In this document: positions 5,255 to 25,663 of the stretch, one piece after another
Numbering within the stretch: the first letter of the stretch is position 1
How the letters are laid out: every line of letters begins with the position of its first letter
The notes under the pieces: model-generated
What the model saw: only the letters and a program-made list of their open reading frames with translations
The model's database searches: none
Told to the model about the DNA's origin: nothing
Program-made: the position numbers and the translations under genes
Source of the DNA: an uncultured virus (IMG/VR IMGVR_UViG_3300031758_000014)
Lineage: Duplodnaviria > Heunggongvirae > Uroviricota > Caudoviricetes
IMG/VR virus record: IMGVR_UViG_3300031758_000014
Length of the DNA: 62,753 nucleotides
Direction: 5' to 3' (one strand)

Positions 5255-5881
5255 TTATTTTTTTAATCTTCCCAATTCCCATCCTTCAGGGATTATCTCA
5301 TTTTTTTTTATTTTTTTATTCTCATACCCATTTGTTATCCAACAAGTTCCAAATTGAGAATTATTCTCACCTTTTTGAATTTCACTCAACTTTTCACTTA
5401 TCTTAATTTTAGATTCTTGTGAATGTTTTTTACCACTGAAACCTTTACTATTTAAATTATTTTTATTACCTTTTAGTTTATTTGATATTTTTTTTATCCA
5501 ATTATCTTTAAAATCAATATCTTTCCTTTTTTCATTTAGTCTATCATTACCAGCTTTAGAACATTTCATTTGATGTTCCTCATCTTTAAATCCACCACTA
5601 CCACCAACTCTCAAATTCATACAAAGAGTTTCATTTATTAGATTTGATGTAATAAGATCAATTTCCGCTTTTATCAGTTCATCTCTATTATCATAAAATT
5701 CCAATATTTCAATTTTAAAATTCTCTTTACCATACTTTCTTATTGAGTATCTTAATTTTTTACCAGATCCCAAATATCCATCGTTTAAATTATTTGTACT
5801 GTGCATACCATAATAATAATTATGATTTATCAAATTTGTCGTTTTATACAAATAGTGATAACATTTAATTTTTCTTGGCAT
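5255..5881 (-). CDS. Seg-like GIY-YIG homing endonuclease with NUMOD3-type motif
   Basis: YLYKTTNLIN..YYGMHST..DGYLGSG; KKHSQESKIKISE. Confidence 0.8.
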   Translation of the reverse strand: MPRKIKCYHYLYKTTNLINHNYYYGMHSTNNLNDGYLGSGKKLRYSIRKYGKENFKIEILEFYDNRDELIKAEIDLITSNLINETLCMNLRVGGSGGFKDEEHQMKCSKAGNDRLNEKRKDIDFKDNWIKKISNKLKGNKNNLNSKGFSGKKHSQESKIKISEKLSEIQKGENNSQFGTCWITNGYENKKIKKNEIIPEGWELGRLKK

Positions 5882-5937
5882 TTTTAAATTTTATTTTTAT
5901 TTATATATTAAATATAATAGTACAAAAATGTCTAAAG

Positions 5938-6005
5938 TGGGAGACGTGAGACTCGAACTCACCTGCTAGGATTTTACAGATCCGGCCGTCACCATAACCC
6001 CTCCC
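5938..6005 (-). tRNA. degenerate tRNA-Tyr(GTA)-like gene with shortened D arm
   Basis: GGAT CT GTA AA ATCC; GTGAG TTCGAGT CTCAC; GGGAG/CTCCC acceptor. Confidence 0.6.
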
Positions 6006-6016
6006 AAGTATAAACT

Positions 6017-6048
6017 AAAAAACCCAACTGATTTTGTCAGTTGGGTTT
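6017..6048 (-). terminator. attenuator terminator of tRNA cluster A
   Basis: AAACCCAACTGA/TCAGTTGGGTTT hairpin plus U-run. Confidence 0.88.
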
Positions 6049-6073
6049 CATAATATTTTTTTATTAAAATATA

Positions 6074-6169
6074 TTATAATACACTTTTACTGACAATAGG
6101 TAATCTATACCCCGCCTCATAAGCCTCGTAGCCTCTCGCTTCTATTGATATGTTAACTATTGTTCTCAT
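6074..6169 (-). CDS. leader peptide A: MRTIVNISIEARGYEAYEAGYRLPIVSKSVL
   Basis: Manual translation; E/A/G/Y/I-rich core matches downstream tRNAs; TTGTCAGT antiterminator. Confidence 0.85.
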   Translation of the reverse strand: MRTIVNISIEARGYEAYEAGYRLPIVSKSVL

Positions 6170-6234: not shown

Positions 6235-6254
6235 TCTTTTTATATTTTTTTTAG

Positions 6255-6328
6255 TAGCGGGAGCTGGATTCGAACCAACGACCTCAAGGTTATGAGCCTT
6301 GCGAGCTACCAGACTGCTCTATCCCGCG
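6255..6328 (-). tRNA. initiator-type tRNA-Met(CAT)
   Basis: CGCGGGA start with C1 mismatch, A11:U24, CT CAT AA loop. Confidence 0.88.
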
Positions 6329-15365: not shown

Positions 15366-16010
15366 TTAATTTAATTCATTTTCATATATTTTTATCCATT
15401 TTCTTATAGCATTATCACTAACACCATATTTTCTACCAGTTGAAGAGTATCCATTTTTTATAATTTCTGCCTTTAAAACTTCATAACTCGGTCTTTCCAC
15501 TTTTCTACGACTTAATCTAACTTTACTTTTCTTTTTTATATCTTTTTTTCTACTAATATTTTTACCACAATGAGTTTCTAGTCCAGCATTACAGTTAGGA
15601 CAAACTATTCTCAAATTTTCTAATCTATTATCATTATATACACCATTTATATGGTCTAAAATTAGAGAGATTTTCATACCATTCCAATTTTCATCCTGAC
15701 CACAAATCTCACATACTCTATTTTTAAGACCATCTTCATATAATCTATTTTTTAAGTGTGTTCTTGAATAGGTTGAATTTTCCACCAAAACTAAGGATAG
15801 ATCAATTTTACTATTTCTCATCTTATTTACCATAACCTCCCATTTCTGAGTGAAGTGAGAAGTGTCAATGTTGTATATTTCTAAATACTTTTTTATTGTC
15901 TTAAAATTACCACCAGCACTTCTTAGTCCAATGTTTTCAAGAGCTTCTTTTAAGCTATTAGATTTTTTTACTATTTCTTCTAATAAATCTTTTTCCCATT
16001 TTATTTTCAT
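15366..16010 (-). CDS. HNH endonuclease with C-terminal HTH
   Basis: CEICG..LDHING..DNRLENLRIVCPNC; GVSDNAIRKW. Confidence 0.85.
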   Translation of the reverse strand: MKIKWEKDLLEEIVKKSNSLKEALENIGLRSAGGNFKTIKKYLEIYNIDTSHFTQKWEVMVNKMRNSKIDLSLVLVENSTYSRTHLKNRLYEDGLKNRVCEICGQDENWNGMKISLILDHINGVYNDNRLENLRIVCPNCNAGLETHCGKNISRKKDIKKKSKVRLSRRKVERPSYEVLKAEIIKNGYSSTGRKYGVSDNAIRKWIKIYENELN

Positions 16011-16086: not shown

Positions 16087-16120
16087 AAAAAAACCCAGTT
16101 AATCTTTGACTAACCGGGTT
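16087..16120 (-). terminator. attenuator terminator of tRNA cluster B
   Basis: AACCCGGUUAGUC/GAUUAACUGGGUU hairpin (G:U pairs form only on the minus strand) plus U-run. Confidence 0.88.
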
Positions 16121-16142
16121 CATATCATTTAAAGTTTTTTAT

Positions 16143-16244
16143 TTAACTTTTAGACAATAGAGCGTTAGTCCCAAATACTTTAGGTTGATCCTGATCTTGG
16201 ATTTGCGGGTTAACTACTGCGATATTTACGTTAAAAGTTTTCAT
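16143..16244 (-). CDS. leader peptide B: MKTFNVNIAVVNPQIQDQDQPKVFGTNALLSKS
   Basis: Manual translation; PQIQDQDQP core matches Gln/Pro/Asp/Pro tRNAs; GACTAAC antiterminator. Confidence 0.88.
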   Translation of the reverse strand: MKTFNVNIAVVNPQIQDQDQPKVFGTNALLSKS

Positions 16245-17729: not shown

Positions 17730-18242
17730 ATGACACCAAATGTTACTTTAATACCAGATTATATCAACTCGGTTGATTTATTTGATTTTATTATAAACAA
17801 CTGTGACTTTGATAGATCTATGAAGGCACGTTGGACCGCATCATTTGGTAAGTCATATGATTATAACGGAATGAGTTATCGTGCTATTCCTTTCCCAGAC
17901 AATTTTACAAATATATTAAACTTGATTAGTGATACGATTGGATTTTTACCAAATAACTGTTTGATAAATCTTTATCATGATGGTAAGAGTTCAATGGGCT
18001 ATCATTCTGATAATACCGATATACTAACACCTGGAACTGGTGTGGTTATAATCTCATTGGGTAGTGACCGAATATTAAGATTTAAGAACAAGATAGATCC
18101 AACTATAATAGTTGATTATACTTTAACAAATGGTTCTTTATTTTACATGGATGACTTAGTTCAGTCAGATTGGTTACACTCAATTCCGAAGTCTGATACA
18201 ACATCACCTCGTATAAGTTTAACATTCAGAAATATAATATGA
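17730..18242 (+). CDS. AlkB-family 2OG-Fe(II) dioxygenase
   Basis: NCLINLY.DG..SMGYHSD, H.IPK, RISLTFR. Confidence 0.9.
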   Translation: MTPNVTLIPDYINSVDLFDFIINNCDFDRSMKARWTASFGKSYDYNGMSYRAIPFPDNFTNILNLISDTIGFLPNNCLINLYHDGKSSMGYHSDNTDILTPGTGVVIISLGSDRILRFKNKIDPTIIVDYTLTNGSLFYMDDLVQSDWLHSIPKSDTTSPRISLTFRNII

Positions 18243-18466
18243 TACATTGTCATATATGTTATTCTACTGATATTGATGAAGATTTCATATGTGATATGTG
18301 TGATCAATATTATTGTGAAGATTGTTCATACACATTTACATTACATTATCAACACCAAGGAGCAAGATGTTATTGGTGTTCTGATCAAAAGAGAAGAAAA
18401 CCTTTATCACCAGCTGATATAAGAGATAATAAGTTAAAAATAATTTTATGGAAAAATCACAATTAG
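18239..18466 (+). CDS. Cys-rich Zn-finger protein with C-terminal tag (RDNKLKIIL)
   Basis: Four CxxC pairs; shared motif. Confidence 0.7.
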   Translation: MIHCHICYSTDIDEDFICDMCDQYYCEDCSYTFTLHYQHQGARCYWCSDQKRRKPLSPADIRDNKLKIILWKNHN

Positions 18467-20596: not shown

Positions 20597-21307
20597 TTAT
20601 TTTAACCATTTTCTTATAGTGTTATCAGAAACACCATATTTTCTACCAACCGATGAATATCCTAATTCAGATACCTCATGCTTAAGTTCTTCTATATCTG
20701 GTCTAATATTTTTTCGTTGTAGTAGTTTATAACATATATTACAATTAGTGGATTTTGAATTCATGAAATTACCACAACTACATTTTTTTTTATTTTCTTT
20801 TATTTTTTTCTCTTTCTCTTTTACTTTCTTTTTATTATTTTCACTCTTTGTCTTTTTACCAGAATAATTATCTGTTTTAGAATGACAATTTGGACATAAT
20901 ATCATTAGATTACTTAGATTATTATTAAATCTATCACCATCTATATGATGTAACTCAATTGGTATCTTCTCACCTAACCACTCACTTAAATTACAACTCT
21001 CACATATGTGATTTTTTATCCCGTCTTCTATTAACTTATTCTTTAATTTATGACTTGATAAATAAATATTATTATTTATATAATAAAGAGCTTCTTTTCT
21101 ACTATTTGATATTTTATACCCTTTAGCCCCTTGATTACCAAAATATTCAATACCCATTATATCTAAGTATGAATTAAGTGTGGAGTATCTACAATTTAAT
21201 ATTTTACATATTTCTATTTTTGGTTTATTTTCACTAACCATACTAATTATCAAATCTCTTTTCTCTAATATATCATGTCTCATTTTTTTTAATTCTTTTT
21301 TATACAC
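20597..21307 (-). CDS. HNH endonuclease with C-terminal HTH
   Basis: CESC..ELHHIDGD..NN...LCPNCHS; GVSDNTIRKW. Confidence 0.85.
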   Translation of the reverse strand: MYKKELKKMRHDILEKRDLIISMVSENKPKIEICKILNCRYSTLNSYLDIMGIEYFGNQGAKGYKISNSRKEALYYINNNIYLSSHKLKNKLIEDGIKNHICESCNLSEWLGEKIPIELHHIDGDRFNNNLSNLMILCPNCHSKTDNYSGKKTKSENNKKKVKEKEKKIKENKKKCSCGNFMNSKSTNCNICYKLLQRKNIRPDIEELKHEVSELGYSSVGRKYGVSDNTIRKWLK

Positions 21308-21670: not shown

Positions 21671-21755
21671 TCGGTAGGGTGGGATTTGAACCCACGTTAT
21701 ACTTTCGTATCCAGTGTATCAGACTGGTCCCTGAAAACCGCTCGGGTACCTACCG
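21671..21755 (-). tRNA. tRNA-Ile(GAT) with long variable arm
   Basis: CCAGT CT GAT AC ACTGG; ATAC GAAA GTAT variable hairpin. Confidence 0.8.
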
Positions 21756-22315
21756 TTTAATCTATCTAATCTTTTTTGTTCTTCTAAATTGAAATGTATT
21801 TCACCATGACAATTTCTACAAACTAAAATACATTTATCAACTTCACTTTTTAATTTCTCAAAAGAGTTTGTTTTTCCACTAATTGTAAAGTCTTTCTCTT
21901 CGGGGTTTAAATGGTGGAATTCTAATGATGTTATACATTTGTTATAACCACATATTTCACAATTATTACCTTTATACTCTACTAATTTTATTTTAACTCT
22001 TCTTCTCCATTCTATTACATTTCTCGAATTTCTATTATCTTCTCTTAATTTATCTGATTTATTTTTATATCTTTTAATTGTACTTATAGATAAGTTAAAT
22101 TTATCAGAAGCCTCTTTTATACTATGATTTTCACAATATTTTTTTATTTCATTTATATCCAAATCATTTACTTTTTTAAGTTTACCAATATCATTCATTC
22201 CATATCTCTTACAATGATATCCAATTGTCGATTTAGATATTTTTAGTTCTTTACTTATTTCATCATAACTTTTACCTTCATTTCTTAATTCAATTATTTT
22301 ATCTTTTGTTTTCAT
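21719..22315 (-). CDS. HTH-HNH endonuclease (paralogue of 4070..4621)
   Basis: CEICGYNKC..LEFHH..CILVCRNCHGEIH; 3' end overlaps tRNA-Ile. Confidence 0.85.
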   Translation of the reverse strand: MKTKDKIIELRNEGKSYDEISKELKISKSTIGYHCKRYGMNDIGKLKKVNDLDINEIKKYCENHSIKEASDKFNLSISTIKRYKNKSDKLREDNRNSRNVIEWRRRVKIKLVEYKGNNCEICGYNKCITSLEFHHLNPEEKDFTISGKTNSFEKLKSEVDKCILVCRNCHGEIHFNLEEQKRLDRLNGRYPSGFQGPV

Positions 22316-22568: not shown

Positions 22569-22602
22569 AAAAAACCCTCAGATTTTTTGTCTGAGGGTTT
22601 TT
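22569..22602 (-). terminator. attenuator terminator of tRNA cluster C
   Basis: AAAAACCCTCAGA/TCTGAGGGTTTTT hairpin. Confidence 0.88.
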
Positions 22603-22625
22603 CAAGTTTTTTATTCTATAAAAAT

Positions 22626-22742
22626 TTATAGAGTAGTTAAGTCATGAAAACCCTCACTATGTCTAATACATAACGTATTTAACACCATCACTGTATTCAG
22701 TGTGTTATTTACATTAATCATATTTAAGTTAATAGTTCTCAT
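22626..22742 (-). CDS. leader peptide C: MRTINLNMINVNNTLNTVMVLNTLCIRHSEGFHDLTTL
   Basis: Manual translation; first 27 residues use only N/L/M/I/V/T/C/R, matching the cluster; TGAGGGTTTT antiterminator. Confidence 0.85.
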   Translation of the reverse strand: MRTINLNMINVNNTLNTVMVLNTLCIRHSEGFHDLTTL

Positions 22743-23356: not shown

Positions 23357-23653
23357 TTATCTACCTCTTTTTCTATTGTGTGTTGTTGTACTATCATAGA
23401 AGTCAGGTTCTTTTTTAGAAACCCATTTTATGAATTTTTCCATCTCTGGATGTTCTTTAACCAACTCAGCATTATTATAATTCTTTTCTAATTCTTTTTC
23501 TGTAAATAATGAATGTATTTTTCGGTGACATATTTTATGTAACCATTCAGTTTCTTTACCACCTCTACATTTGGGAAGGAAATGGTGACGATCAACAAAT
23601 TGATTTTCCCACATTTCTCTATCACAAATAGGACAAATGCCAATTACTTTCAT
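23357..23653 (-). CDS. small HNH endonuclease
   Basis: MKVIGICPICD..HHFLPK..H.ICH.KIH; upstream part of the track ORF is tRNA-Ser. Confidence 0.8.
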   Translation of the reverse strand: MKVIGICPICDREMWENQFVDRHHFLPKCRGGKETEWLHKICHRKIHSLFTEKELEKNYNNAELVKEHPEMEKFIKWVSKKEPDFYDSTTTHNRKRGR

Positions 23654-23656
23654 AAG

Positions 23657-23743
23657 AGGAAGAAGTGGGAGTCGAACCCAGCCCGAGTTAACGAGCCCTT
23701 GTTTTCCAAACAAGTGAGAGGACCACCTCTTCTCGCATCTTCC
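23657..23743 (-). tRNA. tRNA-Ser(GGA)
   Basis: CTTGT TT GGA AA ACAAG; long variable arm. Confidence 0.8.
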
Positions 23744-23745
23744 GT

Positions 23746-23832
23746 TGGCGGAGAGCAGAGTATTCGAAACCCACACGTTGTCGTGCCACTCGCTTAGCAG
23801 GCGGTGCTGAGGACCTCCTCAGTTTACTCTCC
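23746..23832 (-). tRNA. tRNA-Ser(GCT)
   Basis: CT GCT AA loop; long variable arm; GCCA end. Confidence 0.82.
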
Positions 23833-23840
23833 ATTTATTT

Positions 23841-23927
23841 TGGCGGAAGAGTGAGGTATCGATCCCCATACCTTTCGGTACCACTAGTTTTCAAGACTAG
23901 GTCAAGCGCCAGCTTAATTACTCTTCC
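23841..23927 (-). tRNA. tRNA-Ser(TGA)
   Basis: CTAGT CT TGA AA ACTAG; long variable arm; GCCA end. Confidence 0.85.
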
Positions 23928-23935
23928 ATATGTTG

Positions 23936-24021
23936 CGGAAAGAGAGGGATTCGAACCCTCGGATCTTGTTTCAGATCTACGGTTTTCAAGACCGCTCCAC
24001 TCAACCAACGTTACCCTTTCC
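23936..24021 (-). tRNA. tRNA-Ser(TGA)
   Basis: GCGGT CT TGA AA ACCGT; long variable arm. Confidence 0.85.
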
Positions 24022-24029
24022 AATTTTTG

Positions 24030-24101
24030 TAGTCATAGAGGGAATTGAACCCCCACCTGATCGTTCGTAGCGACCTGTCCTATCCGTTAGACGATATGAC
24101 T
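24030..24101 (-). tRNA. tRNA-Arg(ACG)
   Basis: GGTCG CT ACG AA CGATC. Confidence 0.88.
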
Positions 24102-24105
24102 AAAT

Positions 24106-24138
24106 AAAAAAACCCTCAGATTATTAATCCGAGGGTTT
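24106..24138 (-). terminator. attenuator terminator of tRNA cluster D
   Basis: AAACCCUCGGAUUA/UAAUCUGAGGGUUU hairpin plus U-run. Confidence 0.88.
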
Positions 24139-24163
24139 ATTATATAATATTATTATTACCTAA

Positions 24164-24238
24164 TTATAAACACAATCGGATTACATGTCCACTACTCGAG
24201 CGACTTGACGAAACTAATATGTTTAAAATTGTTCTCAT
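24164..24238 (-). CDS. leader peptide D: MRTILNILVSSSRSSSGHVIRLCL
   Basis: Manual translation; SSSRSSS matches Arg(ACG) plus four Ser tRNAs; TAATCCGA antiterminator. Confidence 0.9.
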   Translation of the reverse strand: MRTILNILVSSSRSSSGHVIRLCL

Positions 24239-24296
24239 AATATTTTTTATTTCTTTGTTTATATATTACAAATGTAATACTTCCTTTTTAATTTTC

Positions 24297-24509
24297 CTAA
24301 TTTATTATTTCTTTTATTTCTTCTATTGTAAAAAGTTTACCTTTATTATCATTTTCACATTTAGTATAACCTTCAATAAATGCTTCAATTATATTTTTAT
24401 CGGTTATTCCTTTTTCTTCTGCCCATTTTTGAGCTTTCTTTTCAATCTTAGAAGGTTTTCTTCTATGATATGGTGTTAAGTCAGTATAGTTATCACTTCT
24501 TTCTGGCAT
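24297..24509 (-). CDS. hypothetical protein
   Basis: ORF track. Confidence 0.55.
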   Translation of the reverse strand: MPERSDNYTDLTPYHRRKPSKIEKKAQKWAEEKGITDKNIIEAFIEGYTKCENDNKGKLFTIEEIKEIIN

Positions 24510-24526: not shown

Positions 24527-24657
24527 TGGTAGGGAGATGGGACTCGAACCCATGACCACGCGGTTAACAGCCGAAGTAACTCTTCTAATCAACACTCTTT
24601 CGAGGTAAAGTTATAGAAAAGTAAAGTACGTGCTCTACCAACTGAGCTACTCCCTAC
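24527..24657 (-). tRNA. tRNA-Asn(GTT) interrupted by a 55-nt structured insertion between positions 28 and 29
   Basis: Removing 24574-24628 restores CGCGG CT GTT AA CCGCG; the insert is the conserved module closed by CTC-GAAA-GAG. Confidence 0.8.
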
Positions 24658-25492: not shown

Positions 25493-25521
25493 AAAAAAAC
25501 CCAAGTCTTTTGAACTTGGGT
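25493..25521 (-). terminator. attenuator terminator of tRNA cluster E
   Basis: ACCCAAGU/ACUUGGGU hairpin plus U-run. Confidence 0.86.
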
Positions 25522-25543
25522 CTGTTTGTAGTTATATTTTATT

Positions 25544-25663
25544 TTATAAAGTCGTTAAGTCTTCAAAAAATAAACACAATACTTTTCCAGTACCAAGTTC
25601 TGATTTATTGCTAAACCATTTGCTTGATTTACTAAAATGTTTATGTTTATTAATTGTTCTCAT
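25544..25663 (-). CDS. leader peptide E: MRTINKHKHFSKSSKWFSNKSELGTGKVLCLFFEDLTTL
   Basis: Manual translation; K/H/F/W/N core matches the cluster; GAACTTGG antiterminator. Confidence 0.88.
   Translation of the reverse strand: MRTINKHKHFSKSSKWFSNKSELGTGKVLCLFFEDLTTL

What the first reader, a model, noticed from the sequence alone, without database searches (positions are those of the whole stretch)
24106..24276. Attenuator D: SSSRSSS leader for Arg(ACG) plus four Ser tRNAs
The clearest case. TCG TCA AGT CGC TCG AGT AGT precedes Arg(ACG), Ser(TGA) x2, Ser(GCT) and Ser(GGA). The embedded Arg codon is CGC, read by the ACG tRNA, whereas the genome mostly uses AGA. TAATCCGA (24183-24176) complements terminator TCGGATTA (24132-24125).
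Basis: partly seen in the sequence, partly recalled or inferred. Interest (0 to 1): 0.92.

Follow-up and report, generated by a model that had tools for sequence, protein, structure and literature searches.

The report
Codon-matched leader switch before phage tRNAs
A tiny translated test gene spelled in serine and arginine codons, wired to a switchable transcription stop, sits directly in front of a giant lake phage's arginine and serine tRNA genes, so the phage probably makes these tRNAs only when ribosomes read their codons slowly; this control is textbook for amino-acid synthesis genes but I found no published case for tRNA genes.

Summary
On the minus strand, a promoter-like box is followed by a 24-codon ORF (24238-24164). 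Its codons 10-16 read Ser-Ser-Ser-Arg-Ser-Ser-Ser. A strong intrinsic terminator (24138-24106) follows, and tRNA-Arg(ACG) starts 5 nt later, ahead of four Ser-type tRNAs.

An 8-nt stretch inside the ORF (24183-24176) can pair with the terminator's 5' arm (24132-24125). In 43 distinct relatives from phage and metagenome contigs the ORF, the Ser/Arg run, the terminator and this alternative helix are all kept. Four of the helix's eight pairs show compensatory double changes.

The element is one of five such units in the window. A scan of the window and three related huge phages found 26 units. Each leader is enriched in the amino acids of the tRNAs behind its terminator. The true leader-to-array pairing ranks 1 of 120 in the window.

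Best reading (about 0.8): a ribosome-mediated leader-peptide attenuator that lets transcription run into the tRNA genes when decoding of their own codons is slow. The direction of the switch and the physiological signal are inferred, not shown.

Seven literature searches found no description of this control for tRNA genes. This scan has noted the same kind of element before on other DNA.

The parts
24262..24300 (-). Promoter-like region. It holds a Bacteroidota-type -7 box at 24276-24269.
   Evidence: All 5 of 5 window leaders have such a box 31-53 nt upstream of their ATG. The motif is not enriched in the window as a whole (121 seen against 110.8 expected). The consensus itself is recalled, not tested.
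24164..24238 (-). Leader ORF of 24 codons plus a TAA stop.
   Evidence: The ORF is intact in 43 of 43 distinct relatives.
24191..24211 (-). Regulatory run, codons 10-16: Ser Ser Ser Arg(CGC) Ser Ser Ser.
   Evidence: TCN and AGY codons swap at the same positions in relatives.
24176..24183 (-). Region 2, the 5' strand of the antiterminator. It lies inside codons 19-21, 10-17 nt before the stop codon.
24125..24132 (-). Region 3, the part of the terminator's 5' arm and loop that pairs with region 2.
24106..24138 (-). Intrinsic terminator: a 13-bp stem, a 3-nt loop and a U tract.
   Evidence: The hairpin alone folds at -16.6 kcal/mol. All 8 of 8 modelled pairs show changes on both sides and 99.4% of cells are paired.
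24029..24101 (-). tRNA-Arg(ACG), the first regulated gene. It starts 5 nt after the U tract.
   Evidence: 57.4 bits.
23935..24021 (-). tRNA-Ser(TGA).
23841..23927 (-). Second tRNA-Ser(TGA), with an unusual T arm.
   Evidence: It is about 94% identical in LR745206.
23746..23832 (-). Long-arm tRNA. It is probably Ser(GCT), but the anticodon call is ambiguous.
   Evidence: ARAGORN at a relaxed threshold folds it as Ala(CGC). Relatives carry a Ser(GCT) gene in this array.
23656..23743 (-). tRNA-Ser(GGA).
   Evidence: (39.7 bits, below threshold).
25493..25663 (-). Sister unit. A leader rich in Lys, His, Phe and Trp plus a terminator precede ten tRNAs: Lys, His, Phe, Lys, Trp, Trp, Lys, His, Phe, Lys.
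22569..22742 (-). Sister unit. In the first 27 leader residues, every residue other than Met is Arg, Thr, Ile, Asn, Leu, Val or Cys. After the terminator come tRNAs for Asn, Asn, Ile, Arg(TCT), Ile, Thr, Leu, Cys, Val, Val, Leu.
   Evidence: 28 of 37 residues in the tRNA set, binomial 1e-5.
16087..16244 (-). Sister unit. The leader has a Pro/Gln/Asp run. After the terminator and an HNH endonuclease ORF come tRNAs for Gln, Pro, Asp, Pro.
6017..6169 (-). Sister unit. The leader has a Glu/Ala/Gly/Tyr run. After the terminator come tRNAs for Tyr, Gly, Ala, Gly, Ala.
   Evidence: The SR covariance model gives a weak cross-hit here (E 1e-4).

Best explanation
This is a ribosome-mediated (leader-peptide) transcription attenuator that gates a phage tRNA operon.

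Proposed sequence of events:
1. Transcription starts at a promoter about 30 nt upstream of the leader ATG.
2. A ribosome translates the 24-codon leader while RNA polymerase moves on.
3. If Ser and Arg(CGC) codons are decoded quickly, the ribosome reaches the end of the ORF and covers region 2 (10-17 nt before the stop). The terminator hairpin then forms, and transcription stops 5 nt before tRNA-Arg(ACG).
4. If the ribosome stalls in the run of seven Ser/Arg codons, region 2 stays free. It pairs with the terminator's 5' arm as that arm emerges. The terminator cannot form, and polymerase runs into the Arg(ACG) gene and four Ser-type tRNA genes.

The supply of these tRNAs would thus be set by how well their own codons are read. 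That could be a feedback loop, a response to loss of host tRNAs, or both.

Shown here: the anatomy, its conservation, the covariation of both helices, and the match between leader and tRNA set.
Inferred: that the ORF is translated, the direction of the switch, and the physiological signal.
For: (1) Anatomy.

(2) Folding:
- The nascent RNA up to the terminator loop has the region 2:3 helix in its lowest-energy fold (-17.0 kcal/mol).
- The helix persists with a ribosome A site on codons 10-14 (-12.9). It shortens to 6 bp at codon 15. It is lost at codon 16, at codon 20 and at the stop codon.
- The complete RNA folds into the terminator (-33.0).

(3) Relatives:
- A pattern scan of viral contigs gave 28 loci, 12 true and 16 chance.
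- The metagenome scan gave 44 loci, 39 true.
- With LR745206 and LR756502 this makes 43 distinct leader-plus-terminator sequences.
- In 41 of the 43 a tRNA is called downstream; the other 2 loci end first.
- The first tRNA is Arg(ACG) in 38, Arg(TCG) in 2 and Ser(GCT) in 1.
- It starts 1-16 nt after the U tract in 39 of the 41.

(4) Antiterminator:
- It is present in 43 of 43 sequences: 8 bp in 26, 7 bp in 12, 6 bp in 4 and 11 bp in 1.
- Anchored count: 95% of cells are paired, against 12-60% when the register is slid. Pair 4 is U-A 27, C-G 15, U-G 1. Pair 6 is A-U 22, G-C 19, G-U 2. Pairs 7 and 8 also switch on both sides. None of 2000 column shuffles reached the observed value.
- Tool count on the model alignment: 83.6% paired, 4 pairs with changes on both sides, 0 of 500 shuffles.

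(5) Translation is supported by Ser written as TCN or AGY at the same codon position. Examples: AGT 14, TCG 16, TCA 8, TCT 3, TCC 1 at one position, and TCA 22, AGT 19, TCT 2 at another. The rare codon TCG makes up 18% of unforced leader Ser codons against 2.8% in the window's genes.

(6) The system is general:
- An automatic scan found 26 units in the window and three related phages, and each has a leader ending 19-35 nt before the terminator stem.
- In 19 of 26 units, at most 25 of 500 shuffles reach the observed complement to the terminator arm.
- The true leader-to-array pairing ranks 1 of 120 (window), 1 of 5040, 1 of 5040 and 3 of 5040. None of 20000 permutations over all 26 units reached the observed score.

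(7) Natural experiments:
- Where the Ser tRNAs are grouped with Thr and Cys and tRNA-Arg lies outside the unit, the leader is rich in Ser, Thr and Cys. In one of the two leader versions it has no Arg.
- Where the Lys/His/Phe/Trp and Arg/Ser arrays are fused behind one terminator, the single leader carries those codons plus a CGC.
Against: - No experiment bears on the claim, and the RNA runs were uninformative.
- The alternative helix is only 8 bp. It is much weaker than the terminator, and on its own is matched by 15 of 500 shuffles.
- There is no convincing region 1:2 helix. The 5-bp one found by RNAalifold lies in letters that my search pattern fixed. An untranslated leader is therefore predicted to read through.
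- In several sister units region 2 begins 25-54 nt before the stop codon, so a terminating ribosome would not cover it. Timing would then have to do the work.
- The CGC codon and the flanks of region 2 were fixed by the search pattern, so their conservation is independent only in LR745206 and LR756502.
- 2 of 43 relatives keep CGC but have Arg(TCG) first.
- Leaders also contain residues outside their tRNA set. Ser occurs in the Lys/His/Phe/Trp leaders, and Gln occurs in Pro/Asp leaders whose Gln tRNAs have their own unit.
- In one genome only 3 of 7 leaders score best with their own set.
- The units of different genomes are homologous, so they are not independent samples.
Confidence: 0.8

Rival explanations
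1. The switch is the same, but the signal is amino-acid (Ser/Arg) starvation or general translation failure of the infected cell, not the supply of particular tRNAs. The tRNA genes simply sit behind a starvation-responsive element.
For: A leader-peptide attenuator cannot tell a lack of tRNA from a lack of charged tRNA (established for the trp and his leaders; recalled). An untranslated leader is predicted to read through.
Against: Making more tRNA does not relieve amino-acid starvation. Each of 26 units is matched to its own tRNA set rather than to a common stress signal. The leaders prefer codons that are rare in the phage's own genes, CGC at 2 of 451 and TCG at 2.8%. That fits isoacceptor-level sensing.
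Confidence: 0.1
2. The ORF and hairpin are an ordinary small gene with its own leaky terminator. The tRNAs are made by constitutive read-through, and the codon match is a by-product of shared ancestry or composition.
For: Terminators are often leaky. No expression data exist. The units of different genomes are homologous, so the counts overstate independence.
Against: Within single genomes the true pairing ranks first of 120 or of 5040. The alternative helix covaries with the terminator arm. Leader composition changes when the tRNA set changes. Only 1-16 nt, with no room for a promoter, separate the U tract from the first tRNA in 39 of 41 cases.
Confidence: 0.05
3. The polarity is reversed. 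Fluent translation to the end of the ORF disturbs the terminator and gives read-through, whereas stalling gives termination.
For: In some sister units the stop codon lies only 19-21 nt before the terminator stem. Ribosome-polymerase coupling of this kind is known for pyrBI (recalled).
Against: In this unit the stop codon is 25 nt before the stem, beyond a ribosome's reach. Region 2 lies inside the ORF end, where a terminating ribosome masks it. This logic would also cut tRNA supply exactly when decoding fails.
Confidence: 0.04
4. The leader is a T-box-like riboswitch that binds uncharged tRNA directly, without translation.
For: T-boxes also couple tRNA status to a choice between terminator and antiterminator (recalled).
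Against: No T-box match, and no riboswitch match, appears at E up to 1 in 23600-24300. The leader is about 130 nt with a conserved ATG and an open frame in 43 of 43 relatives. It has seven cognate codons rather than one specifier. TCN and AGY codons interchange, which an RNA-RNA codon-anticodon contact with a single tRNA would not tolerate.
Confidence: 0.02

Closest known systems
his operon leader (hisL; Rfam His_leader RF00514) and the other single-amino-acid leaders (trpL, pheL, leuL)
   Same: A short ORF carries a run of seven cognate codons. It is followed by mutually exclusive antiterminator and terminator hairpins directly before the regulated genes. The nascent alternative helix is weaker than the terminator, as in trp (recalled).
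   Different: The regulated genes are tRNAs, not biosynthetic enzymes. The element is in a phage. Region 2 lies inside the ORF rather than after the stop codon. No clear 1:2 helix is present. The Rfam score is 28.8 bits against a threshold of 49, so it is not a member of that family.
Multivalent attenuators (thr leader with Thr+Ile; ilvGMEDA leader with Ile, Leu, Val)
   Same: One leader mixes codons for several amino acids, so that shortage of any of them gives read-through. Here the mix is Ser plus Arg. In sister units up to seven amino acids are mixed.
   Different: The mix mirrors the identities of the tRNA genes downstream, not the products of a pathway. A bank of at least five differently coded units lies in one 62-kb stretch.
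pheST attenuator (pheM leader) of E. coli
   Same: Leader-peptide attenuation controls a component of the translation apparatus by sensing decoding of its cognate codons (recalled).
   Different: It controls a synthetase, not the tRNA itself, and it is a single bacterial operon.
T-box riboswitches
   Same: tRNA status decides between terminator and antiterminator.
   Different: The T-box binds tRNA directly and needs no translation. No T-box match is found here.
Earlier notes of this scan on other phage and CPR genomes (e1-5886956, e1-5943215, e1-6043918, e1-2978539 and others)
   Same: The architecture and the reading are the same: promoter, codon-matched mini-ORF and switchable terminator before tRNA arrays.
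   Different: They concern other DNA. No look-alike of this stretch is on record in the scan. They are AI notes, not publications.

Membership tests
Leader-peptide (ribosome-mediated) transcription attenuators | A short ORF with a start codon and a cluster of regulatory codons | tested here: met
   ORF at 24238-24164. It has seven consecutive Ser/Arg codons. The ORF is intact in 43 of 43 relatives.
Leader-peptide (ribosome-mediated) transcription attenuators | An intrinsic terminator between the leader and the regulated genes, with no promoter in between | tested here: met
   Terminator at 24138-24106, with tRNA-Arg starting 5 nt later. The gap is 1-16 nt in 39 of 41 relatives.
Leader-peptide (ribosome-mediated) transcription attenuators | An alternative helix that excludes the terminator, placed so that ribosome position decides which forms | tested here: met
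   Fold with ribosome masks. Covariation.
Leader-peptide (ribosome-mediated) transcription attenuators | An anti-antiterminator (region 1:2) helix | tested here: inconclusive
   RNAalifold finds a 5-bp helix. It lies in letters fixed by my search pattern, and it is not in the window's lowest-energy fold.
Leader-peptide (ribosome-mediated) transcription attenuators | The leader is translated, and read-through rises when the cognate charged tRNA is limiting | not testable with these tools
   Support is indirect only: TCN/AGY interchange at the same codon positions. The RNA runs held only fragments.
Rfam His_leader RF00514 | A score at or above the gathering threshold of 49 bits | tested here: not met
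   28.8 bits, E 0.014, at 24104-24220.
T-box leader | A match to the T-box covariance model (specifier loop plus T-box bulge) | tested here: not met
   No such match among the 12 matches at E up to 1 in 23600-24300.

The most novel reading that the evidence does not exclude
Huge freshwater phages run a bank of codon-barcoded leader-peptide attenuators, one for each tRNA sub-array. Each set of phage tRNAs is transcribed on demand, when ribosomes slow at exactly the codons that set reads. This would be a per-codon sensor of tRNA shortage, for instance after host anticodon nucleases strike or when host tRNAs do not suit the phage's codons. It would be the first case of tRNA genes themselves under leader-peptide attenuation.
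Probability: 0.6. Interest if true: 0.9.

Novelty: new variant of a known kind. Interest (0 to 1): 0.85.

Why it matters
Phage tRNA genes have been debated for fifty years, as codon compensation or as replacements for host tRNAs cut by defence nucleases. I saw this debate only in search listings and abstract starts. How the tRNA genes are controlled is hardly addressed there.

A demand-driven, codon-specific switch would mean that the phage measures decoding of each codon class and answers with the matching tRNAs. That makes both ideas directly testable: cut or withhold one tRNA and watch one unit open.

It would also extend the textbook attenuation mechanism to a new class of regulated genes and to viruses. 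It would supply a set of natural, modular codon-specific sensors. And it would flag small unannotated ORFs in tRNA arrays as regulatory elements.

Tried and rejected
- RNA evidence. One search for runs found the stretch mainly in lake and freshwater DNA runs. The two RNA runs I laid held only short contig pieces, mostly tRNA-like and 90-99% alike. They say nothing on termination or read-through.
- A pattern joining the promoter box and the leader start found 0 matches in LR745206, because leaders there start differently.
- The MAFFT alignment and the model-guided alignment put the terminator arm of about a dozen sequences one column out of register. I therefore counted pairs from fixed anchors in a script and give the tool count as the lower figure.
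- The sigma-70-like site inside the leader (24191-24163, 11 of 12 matches) is rejected as chance. The corresponding letters differ in LR745206 and LR756502. A start there would also run straight into the terminator.
- The -7 box motif is not enriched in the window overall. Only its fixed position before all five leaders counts.
- The bacterial and archaeal genome scan gave 5 of 5 chance matches: GC 0.50-0.55, no leader, no tRNA.
The codon behind the Arg at position 5 of the Lys/His/Phe/Trp leader in the 385-kb contig therefore stays unread.

Full report
**What is there**

The window has 28% G+C and is phage-like.
- It carries a baseplate-spike domain, a GH108 lysozyme and a UvsW-like helicase.
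- Its only near DNA matches are two uncultured phages of 634 and 642 kb.
- It holds 33 tRNA genes by ARAGORN, all on the minus strand.
- Public runs that hold the stretch are mainly lake and freshwater metagenomes.

At the finding, the minus strand reads in this order:
1. A promoter-like box at 24276-24269.
2. A 24-codon ORF at 24238-24164. Its codons 10-16 are TCG, TCA, AGT, CGC, TCG, AGT, AGT.
3. A 25-nt A/T-rich spacer.
4. A terminator with a 13-bp stem and a U tract, at 24138-24106.
5. Five nucleotides later, tRNA-Arg(ACG), followed by Ser(TGA).
6. Three further long-arm tRNAs that appear only with looser settings. One of them has an ambiguous anticodon.

CGC is the rarest Arg codon in the window's genes, at 2 of 451 against 388 for AGA.

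**Folding**

- The transcript up to the terminator loop folds with the 24183-24176 / 24132-24125 helix closing an A/U-rich inner hairpin (-17.0 kcal/mol).
- The helix survives when a ribosome is placed with its A site on codons 10-14. It shortens at codon 15.
- It is lost at codon 16, at codon 20 and at the stop codon, because region 2 then lies under the ribosome.
- The full transcript folds into the terminator (-33.0).

This is the geometry of a classical attenuator, with one difference: region 2 lies inside the ORF's end rather than after the stop codon. There is also one gap, the lack of a convincing 1:2 helix.

**Relatives**

LR745206 and LR756502 were found through tRNA similarity. They carry the same unit before their Arg(ACG) and Ser tRNAs, with different letters in both strands of the alternative helix.

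A pattern taken from the three leaders found more:
- 12 true loci among 28 in viral contigs.
- 39 true loci among 44 in metagenome contigs.
- 0 true loci among 5 in bacterial and archaeal genomes.

Together these give 43 distinct sequences.
- All 43 keep an open frame from an ATG, a Ser-rich run around the Arg codon, a terminator of -10 to -22 kcal/mol, and a 6-11 bp complement between the codons just before the ORF's end and the terminator's 5' arm.
- Counted from fixed anchors, 95% of cells pair. Four of eight positions switch between different Watson-Crick pairs. Slid registers give 12-60%. None of 2000 column shuffles reaches the observed value.
- On the model-guided alignment, the terminator has 8 of 8 pairs with changes on both sides. 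The alternative helix has 4 such pairs and 83.6% pairing, with 0 of 500 shuffles reaching it.

Caveat: the pattern fixed AGT-CGC-TC and the CGA end of region 2. Only the other positions count as evidence.

**Is the ORF read?**

Serine at one and the same codon position is written as AGT, TCG, TCA, TCT or TCC in different relatives. These switches need two or three base changes, and they keep the amino acid, or more exactly the set of Ser tRNAs. Length differences between leaders are whole codons: two leader versions carry 10 extra codons and one carries 3. TCG is 6.5 times more frequent in leaders than in the window's genes.

**The unit is one of a bank**

Four more ORFs in the window have the same build: promoter box, a similar first few codons, terminator, then tRNAs.

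An automatic scan looked for a terminator followed by tRNAs, with an ATG ORF ending within 100 nt upstream. It found 26 units in the window, LR745206, LR756502 and a 385-kb IMG/VR contig. Their leaders run as follows:
- Lys/His/Phe/Trp before those tRNAs.
- Asn/Ile/Thr/Leu/Val/Cys/Arg before an eleven-tRNA array of exactly those kinds.
- Pro/Asp(/Gln).
- Gln alone (7 Gln in 15 or 16 residues) before two to four tRNA-Gln genes.
- Glu/Tyr.
- Ile/Gly/Ala.

The true pairing of leaders with arrays ranks 1 of 120 in the window. In the other three genomes it ranks 1 of 5040, 1 of 5040 and 3 of 5040. I used the conservative rule of always taking the longest candidate ORF, which picks a wrong ORF in one unit. 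Every unit has a complement to its own terminator arm downstream of the codon run. In 19 of 26 units, at most 25 of 500 shuffles match it; in the other 7, between 29 and 155 of 500 do.

**Natural experiments**

I sampled relatives through a conserved tRNA stretch instead of through the leader. This gave 12 loci, 3 of them identical to the window.
- Six loci, in two leader versions, group the Ser tRNAs with Thr and Cys. In five of them tRNA-Arg(ACG) is seen upstream, outside the unit. Their leaders are rich in Ser, Thr and Cys. The 33-codon version has 5 Ser, 4 Thr, 2 Cys and no Arg.
- One locus has a leader containing Ser, Leu, Trp, His, Pro, Arg and Cys codons. It precedes tRNAs for Cys, His, Trp, Arg and Pro.
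- One locus has a 46-codon mixed leader before ten tRNAs of nine kinds.
- One contig fuses the Lys/His/Phe/Trp array and the Arg/Ser array behind a single terminator. Its single leader has those codons, Ser codons and a CGC.

So leader content follows tRNA content when the arrays are rearranged.

**Mechanism and its limits**

I commit to the classical polarity: stalling at the cognate codons opens the switch. The anatomy, the conservation, both helices and the leader-to-tRNA match are shown. Translation is supported only indirectly. The polarity, the role of coupling in the unknown host, and the signal are all inferred.

Candidate signals are feedback on the phage's own tRNA output, host tRNAs that poorly read these rare codons, or tRNA cleavage by host defences. 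The position of a Bacteroidota-type promoter box before all five leaders hints at the host phylum. The consensus is recalled, and the motif is not enriched overall.

**Comparison with what is known**

It works like the his, thr and ilv leaders and like the pheST attenuator (recalled knowledge). It is not a member of Rfam's His_leader family (28.8 bits against a threshold of 49), and it is not a T-box.

Seven full-text searches returned nothing that describes leader-peptide attenuation of tRNA genes. I saw only listings and abstract starts, and I read no paper. Subscription journals are mostly outside that library.

This scan has recorded the same kind of element on other genomes, though not on DNA like this stretch. 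Those notes are unchecked AI notes and add no independent support.

**Verdict**

This is a real, conserved, well-built element. It is a new variant of a known mechanism, applied to a new class of genes in viruses.

Noticed in passing
window 24529-24656 (-): A tRNA with a 57-nt insertion in the anticodon loop. ARAGORN's intron mode gives anticodon TTA, which would read the stop codon TAA. Rfam's tRNA model scores it at 43.6 bits. TAA is the commonest stop in the window's long ORFs (26 of 39) and also ends this leader. It is a possible regulated ochre suppressor at the end of the Lys/His/Phe/Trp array.
   Followed up: partly
window 23357-23650, 21719-22315, 20597-21307, 15366-16010, 5255-5881 (-): ORFs of homing-endonuclease type sit between the tRNA sub-arrays, downstream of the attenuators: HNH, HNH_3 and NUMOD matches. 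They would be co-transcribed with the tRNAs. The first one (23357-23650) has no Pfam match and looks HNH-like only by eye.
   Followed up: partly
L001 15593-15622 and L002 about 18222-18251 (+): Nine-codon mini-ORFs with four Lys codons, followed by a hairpin without a U tract, stand directly before the tRNA-Lys sub-arrays inside the Lys/His/Phe/Trp operons of LR745206 and LR756502. They may be a second, different control layer.
   Followed up: no
window 23841-23927 (-): A second Ser(TGA) tRNA with an odd T arm. It scores best on Rfam's tRNA-Sec model (47.3 bits, at threshold). It is about 94% identical across distant huge phages, and a 23-nt stretch of it recurs exactly in 12 viral contigs.
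   Followed up: partly
window 5935-6008 (-): By eye, a tRNA-like sequence with a Tyr-type anticodon loop follows the terminator of the Glu/Ala/Gly/Tyr unit. Neither ARAGORN nor Rfam calls it.
   Followed up: no
window 6017-6169 (-); L002 17561-17713 (+): The covariance model built only from Ser/Arg leaders weakly hits leaders of two other codon families (about 44 bits, E about 1e-4). This suggests that the units of the bank share an origin.
   Followed up: no
window 6254-6328 (-): tRNA-Met stands alone behind its own promoter-like box, without a leader or terminator, just upstream of the Glu/Ala/Gly/Tyr unit. In LR756502 the corresponding tRNA and leader share one promoter.
   Followed up: no
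window 24163-24191 (-): The best sigma-70-like promoter match of the region (11 of 12) lies inside the leader ORF. It is not conserved in relatives, so it is probably chance.
   Followed up: partly
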